Made by a program: the position numbers and the translations under genes
IMG/VR virus record: IMGVR_UViG_2519899780_000005
Strand: one strand, 5' to 3'
Length of the DNA: 47,693 nt
Source of the DNA: a virus
Taxonomy: Duplodnaviria > Heunggongvirae > Uroviricota > Caudoviricetes
Shown here: piece after piece, positions 612-14,750 of the stretch
How positions within the stretch are numbered: the stretch's first letter is position 1
How the letters are laid out: each line of letters starts with the position of its first letter
Notes under the pieces: generated by a model
What the model was told of the DNA's origin: nothing
Seen by the model: only the letters and a program-made list of their open reading frames with translations
Databases searched by the model: none

Positions 612-1280
612 ATGGTGAAATCAATGAAAAAAAACACAGATGATGGGGCTAAAATTTACACACCACTTACCCTAAAGCTTTATGACTGGTGGGTTTTGGG
701 AGTATCAAATCGGCTTGCATGGGGATGTCCTACAAAGGAACACCTTCTTCCACACTTTCTGGAACATGTAGGTAACAACCATCTGGATATTGGTGTTGGA
801 ACTGGGTTTTACCTTACTCACGTACCTGAGAGTAGTCTGATATCTTTAATGGATTTGAACGAAGCTAGCCTGAACGCGGCATCTACAAGGGCTGGGGAAT
901 CAAAAATTAAACATAAAATTAGCCATGATGTTTTTGAACCTTATCCCGCGGCGTTACATGGTCAATTTGATTCCATTTCCATGTTTTACCTTCTTCACTG
1001 CCTGCCTGGAAATATATCTACAAAAAGCTGTGTAATACGCAATGCGGCGCAGGCCTTAACTGACGATGGAACTCTATACGGAGCCACAATTCTTGGCGAT
1101 GGAGTTGTGCACAATAGCTTCGGTCAAAAACTGATGCGCATTTACAATCAGAAAGGCATCTTTTCAAACACAAAAGATTCCGAAGAAGGCTTAACACATA
1201 TACTCTCAGAGCATTTCGAGAATGTTAAAACCAAGGTTCAAGGTACTGTAGTAATGTTTTCCGCTTCAGGGAAAAAATAG
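612..1280 (+). CDS. Class I SAM-dependent methyltransferase (moron); translation may begin at the ATG near 624
   Basis: Glycine-rich SAM-binding motif I (HLDIGVGTGFY) in the 222-aa ORF; opposite strand to the tail genes; own promoter. Confidence 0.75.
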   Translation: MVKSMKKNTDDGAKIYTPLTLKLYDWWVLGVSNRLAWGCPTKEHLLPHFLEHVGNNHLDIGVGTGFYLTHVPESSLISLMDLNEASLNAASTRAGESKIKHKISHDVFEPYPAALHGQFDSISMFYLLHCLPGNISTKSCVIRNAAQALTDDGTLYGATILGDGVVHNSFGQKLMRIYNQKGIFSNTKDSEEGLTHILSEHFENVKTKVQGTVVMFSASGKK

Positions 1281-5089: not shown

Positions 5090-5100
5090 ACTTTTCCACC

Positions 5101-5137
5101 AATAAAAAAAGCCCGCAGCAGTGACGCCACGGGCTTC
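5101..5137 (-). terminator. Putative rho-independent terminator downstream of lom
   Basis: Minus-strand GC stem (gcccg...cgggc) followed by a T-run (plus strand: aaaaaaagcccgcagcagtgacgccacgggc). Confidence 0.4.
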
Positions 5138-5907: not shown

Positions 5908-8900
5908 TCAGCTAATCGTGATGCCTGCAGTGGCTTTCTTCATCACCACAACCAGCAAATCGCTGATACTTGCTGTGGGATACCAGTTATTTACCAGCCA
6001 TGCTGACACCGAAAACTCCAGTGTCATGTGACCGTGACCGGCAGGCATATCAATAACACCACTGTAAATCAGCGTATTATCCAGCGCGGTACGGTTATAA
6101 ATTTCAGCACCGTTTTTCCGTACTATCAGGCGGCATGACGAATAAATATCGTTATTCTCCCGCTCATGTTTAGCGCCGCTGAATGCCACCGCCGGAATAA
6201 CAATCTGCCGGTCAAACGGCTGATCGTCATAAACCCTGACGGTGATGGTCCCTGATGGCCACCGTTCCGGTGCACGGGAGTCCCGGGGGAAAGCTTTGCC
6301 CACTGTTTTAACGAGATCGCCTTCAATCTGGTTGGCGGACAATTTTCCCAGAACCCGACAGTTCTCGTTAATCGTGACGTTGTTGAGCGTCCCGGAGTTC
6401 GCATTCACGTTACCGCTGATATCGGCATTTTTCGCCGTCAGCCGCCCGTCCGGTGTCAGGGAAAATGCCGGAGGATTACCGCCGCTGGTAATGGTCGGAG
6501 CCGTCAGGCGTTTCAGGAACACGTCGTTCATGAATATCTGATCGCCCTGACCAACAAACATCGGCTTTGTGTTGCCATTCGCAGGATTAATCATCGCAAT
6601 CCGGTCAGCAGCCAGAAGCACCTGACTCTGCATACCTGCTGGCGTATTCTCAATACCGGCTCCGATACCCGCAATATAAAGGCGTCCGTCCTTCATCTGC
6701 TGCAGTTTCACGGCCCACATGCTGTTCAGGTTATTATTTGTATCAACCTGAACTTTCTGTATCTGCTGGATTGCCGCACTCTGGTCTTCCAGTTTTTTAT
6801 TGACGGTCTGCGTGATTTCATTGCTGACATTCGTAATGGACGTCCTGATTTCAGCCAGGTCCGGCGCAAGCTGACCGTTATCAATCTGCGTCCACAACTC
6901 CTGGGCCAGATGTGTTTTCCCGATTTCTCCTTTGAAAAAATCCAGGTAACCTTCCGCATCATCGCTCGCCCGACCGACGGCCTCCACGAATGCCGATTTG
7001 CCAACGGTGTTCACACTGCGGATATAAAAGTAATAATCATGGCCCGGTTTGATATTGATACTGGCGGCTATCCAGTACAGCCCCGTGCCAAGGTAGCGGG
7101 CTGTGGTTTCAACCTGCCTGATATCGGTAATCCGCGTTTCCGAGAACCAGAACTCAAACTGTACCGTCGGATCATAAACCGCAAGATGCGGCGTGGCGGT
7201 TATCTGAAAATAGCCCGGCGTCAGCTCAATCCTCGACGGTGCTGCCGGTGCGGCAATCCGGAACGATACCGACGCCGGATCGCCCTGCTGCCCCCGGGCA
7301 TTTACCGCCCGGACTGTCAGCCTGTAGTTCCCCAGCGCCAGTTGCGTGAAGCGGTATGTGGTTTCCGTCGTCCGGGCCGTGCTGACCAGTCGCTCACTGC
7401 CGTCGTCCGCTGTTACGGTCAGACGGAGCAGGAAGCTCACGCCCTTCACCACCTTCGGTGTGTCCCATCGCGCCAGCACCTGATATTCCCCGCTGTCTGC
7501 AGTGACTTCGGCGGTCAGGTGCTGCACTGCTGGCGGCGTGACACCATTCACCGTGCCGCTCTGGTCACCGTCAAAGTGCGCCCCGTTATCCACGATGGCT
7601 TCTTTCTCCGGTACATGCTGCACGGCGGTGATGGCATACGTGCCGTCATCGTTCTCACGGATACTCACGCAGCGGAACAGGCGCTGGCGCAGCGTCGGCA
7701 GCTTCAGCCCCCACACGCTGTATTCTGCAACGCCGTCAGGAACACGGCTCACTTTCACCTTCACGCCGTCGGTGACGGACTGGACCTCCACGCTGACCGG
7801 ATTACCCTGACCGTCAACCAGGCTTATCAGCGTGGTACCGGAGGATGGCAGCGTGATTTCACGGTCGAGCGTCAGCGTCCGGGTCTGGCTGTTCACCGCC
7901 AGCACGCGCCCGCCGGTGCTGATACCGGCATAGTCATCATCGCAGATTTCAATGACATCGCCCGGTACATGGCGAAGCCCTTCGGCACCCACGCTGAAGT
8001 CCACGGTCTGCGTTTCCAGCAGTTCTGTTTTAATCAGCCACAGCCCGGCGCGGTGTGCCTGCCCCCGGCTGGTACAGCCAAAAGCATCCATCTTCGTGAC
8101 GTTACGACCGTAACGGGCAATGGCCTGCGTGTCCTCCACAAGCTCTGTCGCCGTCTCCCAGCCGTTATTCGGGTCAATCCAGTTCACCTCAACGGCATTA
8201 TGGCGGTCCTTCAGGGCGCTGAAGCTGTAGCGGAACGGCGCGCCATCATCCGGCATCACCACATTACTGCGGTTATAGGTCCACACCTTATCCGACGGTC
8301 GGTCCTGCACGAACGTCAGCGTCTGCCCGTTCCATACCGGCATACAGCGCATCGCCGAGCAGAAATCACTGAGAACATCCCACGCCTTGCGCTGTGTGGT
8401 CAGGTAGGCATTACAGGTGATGCGCGGCTCCGTGCCACCAAAGCCATCCGGCACCGACTGGTCGCAATTCTGGCCGATGACATACAGCGCCCATTTGTCC
8501 ACATCCGCCGCACCGAGACGCTTCCCCATGCCGTAGCGCGGATGGGTCAGCATATCCCACAGACACCAGGCCATGTTGTTGCTGTATGCTGGCTTAAACG
8601 TTCCGTCCCAGATACCGCTGTATTGCCGCGTCTGCGGGTTATAGTTCGACGGCACCTGCAGAATGCGCCCGCGAAGATGATAATTACGGCTCACCTGCTG
8701 GCTGCCGAACTGTTCCGAGTCCACCTGCACGCCGACCAGTGCCGTGTTCGGGTAGCACTGTTTCACATCGATGATTTCGGTGTATGACGACCAGAGCGTT
8801 TTGTTCTGCAGCTGGTCTGTGGTGCTGTCCGGCGTCATTCTGCGCATCCGGATATTAAACGGGCGCGGCGGCAGGTTATCCACCACCACCGAGGCCAGAT

Positions 8901-9387
8901 ACTGCGAGGTGGTTTTGCCCTTAATGGTGATGTCTTTTTCCGTCACCCAGCCACCGTTACGCTGGATCTGAACCAGCAGGCGGACTTCCGACGGATTCCT
9001 GTCCCCCTTTGAGGTGGTTTCCACCAGTGCCTGCACACCGAAGGTAAAGCGCAGACGGTCGATGTTTGCCGACGTGATGGTCCGGGTGATCGGCGTGTCA
9101 TATTTCACTTCCGTACCCAGCACCGTCTCGGAGCCGGAGGATTCAAATCCCTCCGGCGGTGTCTGCTCCTGCTCACCTGCCCGGAACACCACCGTGACAC
9201 CGGATATATTGGTATTCCCCTCACTGTCCAGCACCGGCGTACTGTTCAGCAGCACGCTTTTTAATCCGTCCACCGGACCTTCAACCGGCCCTTCGCTGAT
9301 GGCATCGATCACACTCAGCAGCTGCGTGGACTTCAGGTTGTCCCTCGCTTCGCGCGGGGTATGCCCCTTACTGCTTCCTTTACCCAT
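5908..9387 (-). CDS. J: Tail tip / host specificity protein J
   Basis: 1159-aa ORF following I; size and position match lambda J. Confidence 0.95.
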
Positions 9388-9404
9388 TCCTCACACTCCA
9401 TAAA

Positions 9405-9432
9405 CAACAAAGCCGCCCAAAAGGCGGCTCAT
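9405..9432 (-). terminator. Putative rho-independent terminator downstream of the lipoprotein moron
   Basis: Hairpin gccgcc-tttt-gggcggc followed by a T-rich tract on the minus strand. Confidence 0.4.
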
Positions 9433-9453
9433 GAGTTACGACAGGATTAACTA

Positions 9454-9792
9454 TTATTTACATGCATTAACACTATCAGCAAAAATTTTTGGCGTTAATG
9501 CTGGTACACGTTCATAAAGAGTAAAACTACTGCCATTTCCTGCTTTTTTGATATCAAGCACAACATCATATCCCCCCATAGCCTGTGGAACTAAAAGGCT
9601 TACCCCATTCTCAATAGGAAGGGATGTTATAGGTGTTCCATTACCAGCCCATTGTCTGGATATGCAGCCTGACAATTCATCAATATTTTTTAATGAATTA
9701 CCTTCCATTACAGGTTTTCCGGATTTTACGTAATCCAAAGACTTACATCCTGTTAAGGCAATAATCGTGCAGAATAAAATCGTTTTGTTCAT
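9454..9792 (-). CDS. Putative lipoprotein (moron inserted between I and J)
   Basis: MNKTILFCTIIALTGC: signal peptide plus lipobox cysteine; AT-rich flanks; followed by a terminator. Confidence 0.6.
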   Translation of the reverse strand: MNKTILFCTIIALTGCKSLDYVKSGKPVMEGNSLKNIDELSGCISRQWAGNGTPITSLPIENGVSLLVPQAMGGYDVVLDIKKAGNGSSFTLYERVPALTPKIFADSVNACK

Positions 9793-9865
9793 ATAGCTAA
9801 CCAATAGAATAATTATCAGTGTTCGATATAAATATTAAATCAGTTAGAACATGAGTAAAATAATA

Positions 9866-10507
9866 TTACCGCCCAATTACCACAACCTGACCACCATCCC
9901 CTTCATCTGCCGTGCTGATCTCCTGAGATGCCACACGTGACCCCACGCGCATTTCACCGTACAGAACAGGCAGGACATTGCCCTGGGCAACCATGTTATC
10001 CAGTGAGGAGAAATAGGTGTTCTGTTTGCCGTTATCCGTTGTCTGTGTACGGGGAGTTCTGGCTTTCGGTGCCAGCATCTGCGCCACACCACCAAGCGTC
10101 ATCGCCGCACCCATTGAAAAGAGAATGTCACTGAAAGCGATACTGATCCCCGGCATCCAGATTGCCGTAGCAATCAACGCCGCACCCAGCACCGCCTGAA
10201 ACACACCGCCACTTTTTGCTCCCGCAAGACGCGGCACGATGTGGATCACGGCACCATTTGCCAGCGGCTCATTAAGACGGGATGATAATTCGGTTTCTCC
10301 TGCATCCCGCCCGGCAATCCGTACCTGATACCAGCCATCGCTCAGTTTCTGACGAAACGCCGGGAGCTGTGTGGCCAGTGCCCGGATGGCTTCAGCCCCC
10401 GTTTTCACTCGAAGGTCGATGCGGCGGCCAAATCGTTGCAAATCCCCGTAAAGGCAGATGCGTGCCATTCCCGGTGACGCCAGAGGGAGTGTGTGCGTCG
10501 CTGCCAT
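9866..10507 (-). CDS. I: Tail assembly protein I
   Basis: N-terminus MAATHTLPLASPGMARICLYGDLQRFGRRIDLRV matches recalled lambda gpI. Confidence 0.9.
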   Translation of the reverse strand: MAATHTLPLASPGMARICLYGDLQRFGRRIDLRVKTGAEAIRALATQLPAFRQKLSDGWYQVRIAGRDAGETELSSRLNEPLANGAVIHIVPRLAGAKSGGVFQAVLGAALIATAIWMPGISIAFSDILFSMGAAMTLGGVAQMLAPKARTPRTQTTDNGKQNTYFSSLDNMVAQGNVLPVLYGEMRVGSRVASQEISTADEGDGGQVVVIGR

Positions 10508-11148
10508 TTGTCGGTATACCTCTCTCGTTTACTCAGTTGTTCAGGAATATGGTGCAGCAGCTCACCGTCGCCGCAGTAAATGGCGGCGTGATTCGGCACC
10601 GATGAACCAAAACAGCACAGCAGCACATCGCCCGGCTGCGCCTCTGTCAGTGCGACACGGTAAAAACCAGTAGCCTCCATATTGTCAAGATAGAGATTCT
10701 GACCGTGACGCCACCAGTCATCCCCGCGATGAAAATCCGGCATCTCAATCCCCGCCAGATGGTAAGCATCCCGGAACAGTGTGTAACAGTCCGTCACCCC
10801 GTACTCAAAGCGCCGCCCGGTGAGATGCGGCACACAGCGGAACTTGTGAATCGCCCCCCGGCAGACCAGCCACCACGGCAAATCGCTCTGCACCTGCAGC
10901 CGCCGGTCAGCCTCACTCAGCCAGGGCAGACCACCGGGGTGGCTGTGGACCAGCGCCACAATCTCACCCTGCATCTCTGCCTGCAGCCAGTCCTCCGGAG
11001 CCATCCGGAAATACGCCTCCGGCTCACCGGAGATATTCACGCAGGGGAAATATCTTTCCCCCTCCGGCGTGCTTACCACGAAGCCGCACGACTCCGCTGG
11101 CGCACATCGCCGGGCGTGCGCCAGAATCGCTGATTCTGTCTCTGTCAT
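10405..11148 (-). CDS. K: Tail assembly protein K (JAB/MPN plus NlpC/P60-like); start taken at MTETESAIL
   Basis: HSHP metalloprotease-like motif; position between L and I; overlaps I by ~100 nt. Confidence 0.85.
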   Translation of the reverse strand: MTETESAILAHARRCAPAESCGFVVSTPEGERYFPCVNISGEPEAYFRMAPEDWLQAEMQGEIVALVHSHPGGLPWLSEADRRLQVQSDLPWWLVCRGAIHKFRCVPHLTGRRFEYGVTDCYTLFRDAYHLAGIEMPDFHRGDDWWRHGQNLYLDNMEATGFYRVALTEAQPGDVLLCCFGSSVPNHAAIYCGDGELLHHIPEQLSKRERYTDKWQRRTHSLWRHREWHASAFTGICNDLAAASTFE

Positions 11149-11851: not shown

Positions 11852-12180
11852 CAGTTCACCACCTGTTCAAACTCTGCGCTGAACTCAACACGCAGCATAC
11901 TGACCCGCGACGACCATTTTGCGCAGGTCACCTTTATCTGCCGCCACTCATAAGGCGGCGTCCACAGAAAGGATTTCCAGCCCCCGTGCTCTTCCAGAAA
12001 CGACTCCAGTACCGTGGCCTCCTCACGGGGGACAGAAAGCGTCACGCTGTACGTTTTCAGGTTGGCATTCAGCCCGGCAGGCGCTCGCTGAGAATAGCCA
12101 TCACCAAAGCGCACCTTTCTTACAGAAGGGACCGAAGCCACATCCATACCGGGTTTCACTTTCCAGCGGAAGGTCTTCAT
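11851..12180 (-). CDS. M: Minor tail protein M
   Basis: 109 aa; position and size match lambda gpM. Confidence 0.9.
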   Translation of the reverse strand: MKTFRWKVKPGMDVASVPSVRKVRFGDGYSQRAPAGLNANLKTYSVTLSVPREEATVLESFLEEHGGWKSFLWTPPYEWRQIKVTCAKWSSRVSMLRVEFSAEFEQVVN

Positions 12181-14750
12181 CGTCCACCTCCGGAGAACAG
12201 GCCACCATCACGCATCTGTGTCTGAATTTCATCACGGGCACCCTTGCGGGCCATGTCATACACCGCCTTCAGAGCAGCCGGACCTATCTGCCCGTTCGTG
12301 CCGTCGTTGTTAATCACCACATGGTTATTCTGCTCAAACGTCCCGGACGCCTGCGACCGGCTGTCTGCCATGCTGCCCGGTGTACCGACATAACCGCCGG
12401 TGGCATAGCCGCGCATCAGCCGGTAAAGATTCCCCACGCCAATCCGGCTGGTTGCCTCCTTCGTGAAGACAAACTCACCACGGTGAACAATCCCCGCTGG
12501 CTCATATTTGCCGCCGGTTCCCGTAAATCCTCCGGTTGCAAAATGGAATTTCGCCGCAGCGGCCTGAATGGCTGTACCGCCTGACGCGGATGCGCCGCCA
12601 CCAACAGCCCCGCCAATGGCGCTGCCGATACTCCCGACAATCCCCACCATTGCCTGCTTAAGCAGAATTTCTGTCATCATGGACAGCACGGAACGGGTGA
12701 ATCCCCGCCAGTTCTGTTCGCTGCCGGTCAGCATCGCCGCCATATTCTGTGCAATACCGTCAAAGGTCTGCGTGGCCACACTTTTAACCTGCGAAAAACT
12801 GTCCGTCGCACTTTCCGCCCACTCTCCCCAGCCGGACTTCATCCCGGCCATCCAGCTTCCACGAAGCTGCTCCTCCGCAGACCAGGTGTTCTTCAGTGCC
12901 GATGTGGCCTTCGCCAGCGCAGCCGGATTATCACCGTACACCTCACGAAGGCGCTGCTCTTCCGACTCCCGCTGCGCCTGACGGTCGGTGAGGCCGCGGG
13001 CTTTTGCGCTGATTGCCGCCTGCTTCGCGCTTTGCTGCTGTTCAAACCGCGCCGCCTGCTGTGCCAGCTCATTCAGCCGCTTCTGGTGTTCAATCTTGTC
13101 TCCCAGCTCAGCCAGCTGGCGTTTGTACTCCAGCGTCTCTTTCTCATGAGCCAGCAGGGATTTTTCCTGCTCAGATAACTGCCGTTTCGTGGCGGCCTCT
13201 TTCAGGACCACATACTGACTTTCCGCTTCCCATAAATCCCGGCGCTGCTGGCTGATTTTCTCATTCACACCGCTGTGTTTTTCCAGCGTCCTGAGCTCGG
13301 TTTCAAGCGCCAGCAGGGCTGCATGCGCCCGGTCTTCCTGGCGCTCACCGGCAGACACCTTCACACCTGACGGCTTTTTCAGCGTCGATTCATAATCCTT
13401 TTTTGCCGACGCCATCAGCGTGTTGTAATCCGCCTGCAGGATTTTTCCGTCTTTCAGGGCCTTATTCAGCTCTTTCTGACGGGCGGTATATTTATCCAGC
13501 GGCGTCTGCAGGCGCTCATACGCCTTCTGCGCCTCTCCGGTATACTTCAGCTGTGACGACTCACGCTCAGCCCTGTCCCTTGCCGCCAGTTCACCGGCTT
13601 TTTCCATATCCGACTGCAGCGTGGCCGCTGCCAGACCCAGACGGGCATTTTCCCGGTCATCCCATGCCCCCTGAAGGTTCGCACGAAAAGAGGAGGTCTT
13701 TCCCCGGCGCTGGCTCCGGCTCTGGTACCACTGCCATTTTTTATCCGCCTCATCAAATGCCCTCTGCGCACTGGCGAGCATATCCGCTGAGGATTCCGGA
13801 CGACCGATATCCAGAATGGCATCCCACATCGATTTGAATGCCTTCCCTGTTTTATCCGCCCAGGTCTCCAGTGTTCCCATGTTTTCTTTCAGGCGACGGG
13901 TCTGCTCATCAAAGCCTTTCGTGGCGATATCGTTCGCCGCCTGCAATGCCCCGGCCTCGTCTCCGGAACGCTGCAGCTGTGCAACATACGCAATCTGCTC
14001 TGCCGTCACGTTACGGAACTGGCGCGCCATCGCCATCAGTCCCGACGTCGGGTCAGTGGTCAGCTTCCCGAAGGCTTCAGCGACTTTATCCACCTCCACA
14101 CCGGATGCAGACGCAAAACGCGCGACACTCTGGTTGATGGCATCAAACTGTTCACCACCACGCACACCGGCATTCACCAGGGCTGCCAGTGACTCTCTCG
14201 CCTGGTTAAACGTCAGCCCTGCTGCCTGCCCGGCTCTTGAGAGCGTCAGCATACGATCGGCAGTCAGTCCGGCCTGATTGCCGGAAAGGACCAGCGTTTT
14301 ATTAAATTCTGAAAGCGTGGCGTCGCCCTGGTACCAGGCGTACGCCAGCGCACCTGTCGCCACCGCCAGCGAGGTGACCCCGACCATCGGCAGGGTGATC
14401 GCACCGGCAAGCCCCCTGAACATGGGGATCATCCCGCCGAAGGAGTCCTTCACCTGACCGCCCTGTTGCAGCAGGATCAACCAGGGATTCTGACCACCGG
14501 CAAGCTGCGTGGCGATATCCGTAAACTGTGCGGGCAGGGTTCGCATGGCCGCTTTATACTGCCCGACGGAAATCCCGGCTTTTTGTGCAGCCAGCGCCTG
14601 GCGGCTCAGGCCCTGTTCAACAGCACTGGCGGTTTTTCTGGCGTCGGTATCCAGACCTGAAAAATGACGCCTTACCCGGCTCATCTGCTCATCGAAACGG
14701 ACAGCATCCAGACTCAGGTCAATAACAAGATCACCAACCGGCTGGGACAT
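12177..14750 (-). CDS. H: Tail tape measure protein H
   Basis: 857 aa, coiled-coil rich; position between G/T and M. Confidence 0.95.
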   Translation of the reverse strand: MSQPVGDLVIDLSLDAVRFDEQMSRVRRHFSGLDTDARKTASAVEQGLSRQALAAQKAGISVGQYKAAMRTLPAQFTDIATQLAGGQNPWLILLQQGGQVKDSFGGMIPMFRGLAGAITLPMVGVTSLAVATGALAYAWYQGDATLSEFNKTLVLSGNQAGLTADRMLTLSRAGQAAGLTFNQARESLAALVNAGVRGGEQFDAINQSVARFASASGVEVDKVAEAFGKLTTDPTSGLMAMARQFRNVTAEQIAYVAQLQRSGDEAGALQAANDIATKGFDEQTRRLKENMGTLETWADKTGKAFKSMWDAILDIGRPESSADMLASAQRAFDEADKKWQWYQSRSQRRGKTSSFRANLQGAWDDRENARLGLAAATLQSDMEKAGELAARDRAERESSQLKYTGEAQKAYERLQTPLDKYTARQKELNKALKDGKILQADYNTLMASAKKDYESTLKKPSGVKVSAGERQEDRAHAALLALETELRTLEKHSGVNEKISQQRRDLWEAESQYVVLKEAATKRQLSEQEKSLLAHEKETLEYKRQLAELGDKIEHQKRLNELAQQAARFEQQQSAKQAAISAKARGLTDRQAQRESEEQRLREVYGDNPAALAKATSALKNTWSAEEQLRGSWMAGMKSGWGEWAESATDSFSQVKSVATQTFDGIAQNMAAMLTGSEQNWRGFTRSVLSMMTEILLKQAMVGIVGSIGSAIGGAVGGGASASGGTAIQAAAAKFHFATGGFTGTGGKYEPAGIVHRGEFVFTKEATSRIGVGNLYRLMRGYATGGYVGTPGSMADSRSQASGTFEQNNHVVINNDGTNGQIGPAALKAVYDMARKGARDEIQTQMRDGGLFSGGGR

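What the first reader, a model, noticed from the sequence alone, without database searches (positions are those of the whole stretch)
9454..9865. Lipoprotein moron inserted between tail genes I and J
I and J are normally adjacent. Here an AT-rich insert carries a gene with a canonical lipoprotein signal (LTGC lipobox), its own upstream AT-rich promoter-like region and a terminator hairpin. By analogy with Cor and Llp-type exclusion lipoproteins that block outer-membrane receptors, it is a candidate superinfection-exclusion factor matched to this phage's J receptor specificity.
Basis: partly seen in the sequence, partly recalled or inferred. Interest (0 to 1): 0.55.

Follow-up and report, generated by a model that had tools for sequence, protein, structure and literature searches.

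The report
Lipoprotein cargo gene in phage tail operon
A lambda-like prophage carries an extra, foreign-looking gene between tail genes I and J for a small outer-membrane lipoprotein of unknown function; this is an ordinary kind of phage "moron", probably an envelope-level phage-exclusion factor, and it is not tuned to this phage's own receptor-binding protein.

Summary
The observation mostly holds. A 112-aa ORF (9454-9792, minus strand) with a canonical lipobox (LTGC, Cys16) lies in a 34% GC insert between I and J, which are about 57% GC. Two details fail. No sigma-70 consensus lies upstream. The "terminator hairpin" belongs to the backbone, because lambda, mEp460 and HK022 have it before J without this insert.

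The protein matches only PHROG 914 (unknown function). It has no Pfam, PADLOC or PDB sequence match. AlphaFold gives a confident small alpha/beta fold with only generic structural neighbours.

Homologues sit at three different junctions of lambda-like tail operons (T|H, K|I, I|J), always co-oriented with the tail genes. They also occur on a plasmid-like contig and in the Shimwellia chromosome. It is therefore mobile cargo.

The identical E. coli protein is linked to four distinct J receptor-binding tips, and this window's J type also occurs without it. That argues against "matched to J". SNPs indicate purifying selection (11 synonymous, 6 non-synonymous).

The best reading is an outer-membrane-anchored exclusion or receptor-masking factor, which remains untested. 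It is not a Cor, Llp or Bor homologue. It is a new member of a known kind and of modest interest.

The parts
9454..9792 (-). Lipoprotein gene: 112 aa including the signal peptide, about 96 aa when mature. It is a member of PHROG 914.
   Evidence: ORF list. Full-length match to phrog_914, E 7e-33. RefSeq annotates the same 339-nt CDS as a hypothetical protein, WP_001332187.1. Family alignments support the ATG start.
9745..9792 (-). Signal peptide plus lipobox (MNKTILFCTIIA-LTGC). Cys16 is the predicted lipidated first residue of the mature protein. Lys at +2 means no inner-membrane retention signal.
   Evidence: Read from the sequence. Cys16 is nearly invariant and no family member has Asp at +2. 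The outer-membrane assignment follows the established Lol +2 rule and is an inference.
9793..9865 (-). A 73-nt, 22% GC spacer between the I stop codon and the lipoprotein start. This is the only room for a private promoter.
   Evidence: GC content. No sigma-70 consensus found. No clear Shine-Dalgarno sequence in front of the ATG.
9431..9453 (-). The 3' end of the inserted DNA, after the lipoprotein stop codon.
   Evidence: Alignment with the insert-free junction of mEp460 places the right boundary just before the hairpin.
9400..9430 (-). GC-rich hairpin (GAGCCGCC-TTT-GGGCGGCTT) with a T-rich tail, then the J ribosome-binding site. This is a backbone element, not part of the insert.
   Evidence: Terminator-like hit. 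The same element is present in mEp460 and lambda, and an equivalent one in HK022 and VT1-Sakai, upstream of J without this insert.
9866..10507 (-). Tail tip assembly gene I (upstream neighbour).
   Evidence: Pfam Lambda_tail_I, E 4e-24. RefSeq calls it a tail assembly protein.
5908..9387 (-). Central tail fibre / host specificity gene J (downstream neighbour).
   Evidence: ORF. RefSeq gpJ. The last 299 aa are 97.7% identical to J of VT1-Sakai and PPompW.
10405..11148 (-). Tail gene K (JAB + NlpC/P60). Included as context because relatives of the lipoprotein sit directly after K.
   Evidence: Pfam Prok-JAB and NLPC_P60. Loci L001, L004-7, L071, L079 and L080.

Best explanation
A horizontally acquired single-gene cassette (a moron) has been inserted between the stop codon of I and the hairpin that normally precedes J.

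It encodes a Sec/Lsp-exported lipoprotein. This is predicted to be anchored in the outer membrane facing the periplasm, and to fold into a compact beta-alpha-beta4-alpha domain stapled by a Cys43-Cys111 disulfide.

The gene belongs to an uncharacterised family (PHROG 914) that moves as cargo between junctions of lambda-like tail operons. It is also found occasionally on plasmids and in chromosomes.

The most likely job is to modify the cell envelope so that incoming siphophages cannot adsorb productively or deliver DNA. It could be made in the lysogen, late in infection, or both. Because it is co-oriented with the late operon, it is necessarily transcribed late, and it could then also keep progeny from sticking to debris.

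Whatever it targets is not specific to this phage's J receptor-binding tip.

Shown: the insertion, the lipoprotein signal, the mobility of the family, purifying selection, and the lack of linkage to J type. Inferred: the localisation, the disulfide, expression in the lysogen, and the exclusion activity itself.
For: - Insertion and composition.
- Lipobox and family-wide conservation of Cys16, Cys43 and Cys111.
- Confident AF2 model (pLDDT 83.6, pTM 0.75).
- The same family occurs at T|H (Enterobacter; loci L008-10, L072-77), K|I (Klebsiella; L071, L079, L080, L083, L096; phages Fraca and LMessi) and I|J (about 59 E. coli viral contigs). It is always on the tail-gene strand.
- Every tail-module copy is followed within about 15-45 nt by a GC hairpin plus T-run.
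- Purifying selection: 11 synonymous against 6 non-synonymous distinct SNPs, pN/pS about 0.16, binomial P = 2e-4.
- An export signal is hard to reconcile with a virion part, because tails assemble in the cytoplasm (established knowledge).
- Precedents for tail-cluster lipoproteins and membrane morons that exclude phages: HK97 gp15 at the same T|H site, and Cor (PMC3594210); Lpp021 and Lpp010 (PMC11893012); Rtp45 and Llp (PMC12685063).
- A Pseudomonas phage homologue lies in the early or immunity-side region, where accessory genes are commonly found (the placement is; the significance of that region is my reading of lambdoid genome layout).
Against: - There is no functional data for any member.
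- PADLOC gives no hit and PHROG 914 has no assigned function.
- There is no homology to Cor, Llp or Bor.
- The mature protein is about 96 aa with a helix-grip-like fold. The characterised receptor blockers are smaller: Rtp45 is about 6 kDa (PMC12685063), and the precursors of HK022 Cor and mEp021 Lpp021 are 77 and 72 aa.
- No recognisable promoter was found, and the E. coli copy has a weak ribosome-binding site. Expression in the lysogen is therefore unproven.
- 3 of 59 copies are frameshifted.
- Chromosomal and plasmid relatives show the fold is not intrinsically anti-phage.
Confidence: 0.45

Rival explanations
1. Lysogenic-conversion or fitness lipoprotein unrelated to phage exclusion. It would act in the manner of Bor/Iss, for example in serum resistance, envelope stress tolerance or small-ligand binding, and benefit the host in the gut.
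For: The nearest structural neighbours are Flpp3 (annotated in PDB entry 2mu4 as an F. tularensis virulence determinant; that it is a lipoprotein is from my own knowledge), the BamC N-terminal domain and ligand-binding helix-grip (Bet v 1 / START-like) folds. Relatives occur in the Shimwellia chromosome next to ecotin and on a Rep3/ParA plasmid-like contig. The window also carries lom, a classic conversion gene, right after J. The gene is linked to many J and H types, as expected for a host-directed function.
Confidence: 0.2
2. One reading: a Cor/Llp-type blocker of the particular outer-membrane receptor used by this phage's J, co-evolved with J.
For: In E. coli the gene lies directly upstream of J. 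23 of 36 complete J proteins linked to it belong to one class. Receptor-specific tail-cluster lipoproteins exist (PMC11893012, PMC12685063).
Against: The identical lipoprotein occurs with four J tip types that are 97, 61, 41 and 17% identical over the last 150 aa. The window's J type occurs without the lipoprotein in VT1-Sakai and PPompW. Homologues 50-60% identical lie at K|I or T|H next to J proteins of 1,067 to 3,367 aa. There is no homology to Cor or Llp.
Confidence: 0.1
3. A lytic-cycle helper, not a prophage-expressed gene. It would be made only from the Q-antiterminated late transcript, for example to mask receptors on debris at lysis or to condition the envelope for release.
For: The gene is always co-oriented with the late operon at all three junctions. 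No private promoter is detectable, and the K|I copies start about 30 nt after K with a good Shine-Dalgarno sequence. Masking cell fragments is a stated role of exclusion lipoproteins (PMC12685063).
Against: A terminator directly after the gene makes most sense if some transcripts start nearby without antitermination. Relatives exist outside any late operon.
Confidence: 0.15
4. A decaying passenger with no current function.
For: 3 of 59 viral-contig copies carry frameshifts at homopolymer runs. The ribosome-binding site is weak. No sequenced free phage in the 50,697-record collection carries it.
Against: pN/pS is about 0.16. 31 of 112 residues are invariant across genera, and two cysteines are invariant across 30 distant members. 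The exact protein is present on at least 1,000 contigs.
Confidence: 0.05

Closest known systems
Morons of HK97/HK022 (Juhala et al. 2000, as summarised in PMC3594210): HK97 gene 15 at T|H; HK022 gp20 at K|I; HK022 gp22/gp23 at I|J
   Same: An extra gene between conserved tail genes, with deviating base composition, followed by a hairpin terminator. The family here uses the very same three junctions. HK97 gp15 is a proven exclusion protein.
   Different: HK97 gp15 is an inner-membrane protein (PMC3594210), and HK022 gp20 looks like a small membrane protein from its hydrophobic N-terminus (inference). Neither is a lipoprotein. HK022 gp20, gp22 and gp23 show no resemblance to this protein. A private promoter is not demonstrable here.
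Cor (HK022, phi80, N15) superinfection-exclusion lipoprotein
   Same: A small phage-encoded lipoprotein with a C-terminal Cys-Lys, encoded in the tail region of lambdoid phages. It blocks FhuA-dependent phages (PMC3594210).
   Different: Cor is 77 aa against 112 aa. hhalign aligns only the signal peptide and a short linker. Cor lies after J, not between I and J.
Llp (T5) and Rtp45 (Rtp) periplasmic exclusion lipoproteins
   Same: Outer-membrane inner-leaflet lipoproteins that bind the periplasmic face of the receptor (FhuA, LptDE) and allosterically prevent binding of the receptor-binding protein (PMC9586334, PMC12685063).
   Different: Rtp45 is about 6 kDa (PMC12685063). There is no sequence similarity beyond the signal peptide (using an Llp sequence recalled from memory). 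Those proteins are receptor-specific, whereas this one is not linked to a J tip type.
Lpp021 and Lpp010 of mEpimmI coliphages
   Same: Lipoproteins encoded in the structural gene cluster. They are experimentally shown to exclude OmpA- or LamB-dependent phages, lambda included (PMC11893012).
   Different: Lpp021 is 72 aa and lies after J on the opposite strand. tblastn with this protein found nothing in mEp021 even at E 10.
Bor/Iss lambda lipoprotein
   Same: A prophage-encoded outer-membrane lipoprotein of about 100 aa acting as a lysogenic conversion factor (PMC3594210).
   Different: No Pfam Lambda_Bor match. The genomic position differs: bor lies beside the lysis genes (my own knowledge of the lambda map).
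Flpp3 (DUF3568) and the BamC N-terminal domain
   Same: The best structural neighbours of the AF2 model. BamC is annotated as Lipoprotein 34; Flpp3 as a lipoprotein is from my own knowledge. Both have a helix-grip-like alpha/beta fold.

Membership tests
Moron (Juhala/Hendrix definition, PMC3594210) | An extra gene between neighbours that are adjacent in related phages | tested here: met
   I and J are adjacent in 103 phage records and at thousands of E. coli prophage junctions. The insert is present at 348 places.
Moron (Juhala/Hendrix definition, PMC3594210) | Base composition differs from the surrounding genes | tested here: met
   GC is 0.34 against 0.57.
Moron (Juhala/Hendrix definition, PMC3594210) | Its own promoter | tested here: inconclusive
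   No sigma-70 consensus on the coding strand in the 73-nt spacer or in relatives. A consensus scan cannot exclude a weak or alternative promoter.
Moron (Juhala/Hendrix definition, PMC3594210) | Its own terminator | tested here: inconclusive
   A hairpin plus T-run follows the gene, but it pre-exists in insert-free lambda, mEp460 and HK022. Copies at K|I and T|H are each followed by a strong terminator.
Moron (Juhala/Hendrix definition, PMC3594210) | Expressed from the repressed prophage | not testable with these tools
   Needs RNA-seq or 5' RACE of a lysogen.
Bacterial lipoprotein (Lgt/Lsp substrate) | Signal peptide ending in the lipobox [LVI][ASTVI][GAS]C | tested here: met
   MNKTILFCTIIA-LTGC. 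Cys16 is at least 90% conserved in the family. Three members hit Pfam LPAM_1.
Bacterial lipoprotein (Lgt/Lsp substrate) | Actual lipidation and outer-membrane localisation | not testable with these tools
   Only the +2 Lys (no Asp) rule can be applied.
PHROG 914 | Full-length profile match | tested here: met
   E 7.3e-33, residues 1-112 on profile positions 1-118. The family has no assigned function.
Cor exclusion lipoproteins | Sequence homology of the mature domain | tested here: not met
   hhalign of the 30-sequence profile against HK022 Cor aligns only residues 1-31, which are the signal peptide and linker.
Cor exclusion lipoproteins | Blocks FhuA-dependent phages | not testable with these tools
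   Requires plating assays.
Llp (T5) exclusion lipoprotein | Sequence homology of the mature domain | tested here: not met
   Only the first 20 residues align.
Bor/Iss (Pfam Lambda_Bor) | Pfam profile match | tested here: not met
   No Pfam family at E<=1. None among 30 relatives.
Known anti-phage defence proteins (PADLOC-DB) | Profile match to any catalogued defence component | tested here: not met
   0 families at E<=1.
   The same protein occurs with four tip types, and the same tip type occurs without the protein.

The most novel reading that the evidence does not exclude
PHROG 914 is a new structural class of outer-membrane-anchored exclusion factor, larger than the Cor, Llp and Rtp45 type. 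It would not mask a specific receptor. Instead it would block a step common to all lambda-like tail tips after adsorption, for example by neutralising the incoming K NlpC/P60 peptidase or the I/H periplasmic conduit, analogous to T4 Spackle inhibiting the gp5 lysozyme. This would explain why it rides next to K, I or H, is indifferent to the J tip type, and occurs across Escherichia, Klebsiella, Enterobacter and Pseudomonas siphophages.
Probability: 0.12. Interest if true: 0.6.

Novelty: new member of a known kind. Interest (0 to 1): 0.33.

Why it matters
About 6% of complete E. coli genomes carry this exact gene, including the O104:H4 outbreak lineage, and relatives are common in Klebsiella and Enterobacter prophages.

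If it excludes phages at the envelope, it is one more prophage-borne determinant of phage host range. That is relevant to phage therapy and to competition between prophages.

Because it is not tied to one J tip, it could reveal a generic weak point in entry by lambda-like siphophages.

If it is instead a fitness lipoprotein, it adds to the Bor and Lom type of conversion genes.

Either way it is a cheap target. A single 339-nt gene can be cloned and tested by spot assays.

Tried and rejected
- Pfam, NCBIfam and PADLOC on the protein gave nothing apart from a signal-peptide-level VirB7 hit. Pfam on 30 relatives gave nothing.
- A PDB sequence profile search gave nothing.
- tblastn against 50,697 phage records found no close copy. 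Only Fraca and LMessi matched, at about 30% identity.
With the close alignment it returned one Kluyvera locus.
- Literature searches for the RefSeq accession found nothing. The prophage transcriptomics paper (PMC7067206), the Tai paper (PMC11364771) and the HepS paper (PMC13043305) were checked and do not concern this gene.
- A virion structural role was considered and judged unlikely because of the export signal. A spanin (Rz1-like) role was rejected because the gene is not in the lysis cassette; its folded 96-aa domain also does not resemble Rz1 as I recall it. No spanin comparison was run.
- The idea that the lipoprotein is functionally coupled to gene I was considered. It is adjacent to I in most loci, and in Pseudomonas phage phiAH14a a copy travels with a second I paralogue. 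I left this as unexplained, because the T|H copies are not next to I.

Full report
**What is there**

The window is a lambda-like prophage with its late genes on the minus strand. The order is H 12177-14750, M, L, K 10405-11148, I 9866-10507, then a 112-aa ORF at 9454-9792, then J 5908-9387, followed by lom, a side tail fibre gene and its assembly gene. The insert region is 100% identical to an ompW-integrated prophage of E. coli O104:H4, where the ORF is annotated as hypothetical protein WP_001332187.1.

The ORF starts MNKTILFCTIIALTGC. This has a basic n-region, a hydrophobic core, the lipobox L-T-G-C, and Lys at +2. GC falls from 0.57 in I and J to 0.34 across 9431-9865, and to 0.22 in the 73-nt spacer upstream of the ORF.

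**Is it really an insertion?**

Yes.
- In 103 lambda-like phage records the I and J flanks match, but the middle is missing and the two genes are about 40-60 nt apart.
- The uninterrupted junction occurs at about 8,700 places in 4,285 of 5,426 complete E. coli genomes.
- The insert occurs at 348 places in 336 genomes.
- Aligning the window with mEp460 puts the insertion between the I stop codon and a GC hairpin plus T-run that lies just before the J ribosome-binding site.

It is real, but it is part of the backbone. Lambda has AAACCGCCTGCGGGCGGTTTTGTCATTTATGGAG at the same place. HK022 and VT1-Sakai have equivalent hairpins.

The consensus scan finds no site on the coding strand, my relaxed scan gives nothing better than 8 of 12 matches, and the E. 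coli copy lacks a clear Shine-Dalgarno sequence.

The junction is a known site for extra genes. The HK022 record annotates "moron gene products" at K|I (gp20) and at I|J (gp22, gp23), and Cor after J. VT1-Sakai carries an unrelated filler of about 240 bp at I|J.

**What is the protein?**

- It has no Pfam, PADLOC or meaningful NCBIfam match. It matches PHROG 914 (unknown function) over its full length.
- The word-indexed search found only about 20 clusters, all Enterobacteriaceae and 48-62% identical. All source names are "hypothetical", "lipoprotein" or "phage protein".
- A profile search of 1.8 billion representatives found 125 clusters. Nearly all are lipoproteins of 105-125 aa.
- Across 30 diverse members, Cys43 and Cys111 are invariant and the lipobox Cys is nearly so. 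The close family also keeps KSLD after the Cys, PQAMGGYDVVLD and LYER.
- AlphaFold2 gives a confident model (pLDDT 83.6, pTM 0.75) with beta-alpha-beta4-alpha topology.
- The PDB sequence profile search is empty.

The protein is therefore an exported, probably disulfide-bonded, outer-membrane lipoprotein of an uncharacterised family. The localisation and the disulfide are inferences.

**Where do relatives live?**

This is the most informative result. The family occupies three different junctions of lambda-like tail operons, always on the tail-gene strand.
- I|J: all of the roughly 59 E. coli viral contigs carrying a 98-100% identical protein.
- K|I: Klebsiella prophages, several IMG/VR contigs, a Kluyvera genome, and coliphages Fraca and LMessi (about 30% identity).
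- Between the tail chaperone T and the tape measure H: Enterobacter and Citrobacter prophages. This is exactly the site of the prototype moron, HK97 gene 15 (PMC3594210).

Each of these copies is followed within about 15-45 nt by a strong GC hairpin plus T-run and the next gene's ribosome-binding site.

More distant members lie elsewhere:
- on a Rep3/ParA plasmid-like contig;
- in the Shimwellia blattae chromosome, between a yidB-like gene and ecotin;
- in the early or immunity-side region of Pseudomonas phage phiAH14a.

This is the behaviour of mobile cargo, not of a tail part with a fixed place in the assembly line. The export signal also argues against a virion role.

**Is it matched to J?**

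No.
- Among 36 complete J proteins linked to an identical or one-residue-different lipoprotein, the last 300 aa fall into six classes at 90% identity.
- The last 150 aa fall into four types that are 97, 61, 41 and 17% identical to the window's.
- The tape measure H next to the same lipoprotein ranges from 26 to 100% identity.
- The window's J tip is 97.7% identical to J of VT1-Sakai and the PPompW phages. The lipoprotein gives no credible tblastn match in that phage collection: only 12 weak hits (<=38% identity) at E<=10, none to those phages.

**Is it maintained?**

In the 56 intact E. coli copies there are 17 distinct SNPs, 11 synonymous and 6 non-synonymous. With 75 synonymous and 261 non-synonymous sites, pN/pS is about 0.16 and the binomial P is 2e-4. 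Three of 59 copies are frameshifted at homopolymer runs.

**How it most likely works**

Small lipoproteins or membrane proteins encoded in or beside siphophage tail genes are a well-documented way of closing the door behind the phage.
- Cor blocks FhuA-dependent phages, and HK97 gp15 blocks DNA entry (PMC3594210).
- Llp and Rtp45 bind the periplasmic face of FhuA or LptDE and change the surface loops (PMC9586334, PMC12685063).
- Lpp021 and Lpp010 exclude OmpA- or LamB-dependent phages (PMC11893012).

By position, export signal and mobility, this gene fits that class best. I put about 0.45 on an envelope-level exclusion or masking role. The target is not specific to the J tip.

Co-orientation with the late operon guarantees late expression. 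The terminator after every copy hints at additional prophage expression, but that is unproven.

The rivals are:
- a Bor-like fitness lipoprotein (0.2);
- a purely late, debris-masking role (0.15);
- a decaying passenger (0.05).

**Comparison and verdict**

The gene works like a tail-region moron and probably like an exclusion lipoprotein. It is not a member of the Cor, Llp, Bor or mEpimmI Lpp families, and it is not in PADLOC. It is a new, uncharacterised member of a known kind.

Interest is modest. A specialist would not be surprised by a lipoprotein moron at I|J. The family's use of three junctions, its independence from J type, and its presence in 6% of E. coli genomes make it a cheap and reasonable target for a spot-assay test.

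Noticed in passing
L086:5028-5948 and L100:16239-17310 (Pseudomonas phage phiAH14a, KU708004): phiAH14a has two 'lipoprotein + I' pairs. In the tail module, an unrelated 140-aa lipoprotein lies directly upstream of I. In the early or immunity-side region, a PHROG-914-type protein lies directly upstream of a second I paralogue that is 79% identical to the first. The annotated PHROG-914 copy lacks its signal peptide, so the start may be mis-called. This looks like a captured K|I junction fragment. Its function is unknown.
   Followed up: partly
L001:3647-4336 and L002 (coliphages Fraca, LMessi): Two different lipoprotein genes sit in tandem between K and I. The first (LIIVGC lipobox, 115 aa in the LMessi annotation) is unrelated to the second, which is a distant PHROG 914 member. 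A single terminator follows the pair.
   Followed up: partly
window 9400-9430; L090:760-800 (lambda); L091 about 5090-5135 (HK022); L001:4345-4385: A GC hairpin, then a T-run, then ATGGAG/ATGGGG directly upstream of the next tail gene recurs at many junctions. Fraca (lipoprotein|I) and HK022 (I|J) share an almost identical hairpin, GCCACCTTCGGGTGGCTTTTTTTATGG. These elements may be shared junction or recombination modules as well as terminators.
   Followed up: partly
L088:3187-3428 (VT1-Sakai, I|J gap): The I-J gap in VT1-Sakai holds a different filler of about 240 bp, with no similarity to the lipoprotein insert and with its own hairpin. I|J is therefore a recurrent insertion point.
   Followed up: no
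window about 9570-9577 (G6 run in the MGGY codons) and the A6 run near 9680: The three frameshifted copies among 59 viral contigs (L067, L068, L069) are shifted at about nt 220 (the G6 run encoding the conserved MGGY motif) in two copies and at about nt 107 (near an A-run) in the third; the link to the runs is inferred from the position where mismatches begin. These are either sequencing errors or mutational hot spots.
   Followed up: partly
L094:4544-5946 (Shimwellia blattae CP001560): A 38%-identical family member is a chromosomal gene between a yidB-like gene and ecotin, with no phage genes within 5 kb.
   Followed up: no
L081:1-1740: A distant family member lies next to a Rep3 replication gene on a plasmid-like contig that also has ParA, KfrA, a resolvase and a YafO/PhdYeFM toxin-antitoxin pair.
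   Followed up: no
window 612-1280 (+): A class I SAM-dependent methyltransferase gene (Pfam Methyltransf_12/23/25) lies on the opposite strand just outside the tail fibre assembly gene. It is another moron-like cargo gene at the prophage end.
   Followed up: partly
L014, L044 (IMG/VR contigs): These contigs show repeated or interleaved K-I-J-H-M-L blocks around the lipoprotein. They are probably assembly chimeras of several co-resident lambdoid prophages.
   Followed up: no
L096:420-4939, L097:1197-4939: In some prophages the K|I junction has grown into an island of about 4.5 kb (Arc-like repressors, Bro-N/KilA-N/ANT antirepressors, a 94-aa ORF). The lipoprotein is still the last gene before I.
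   Followed up: no
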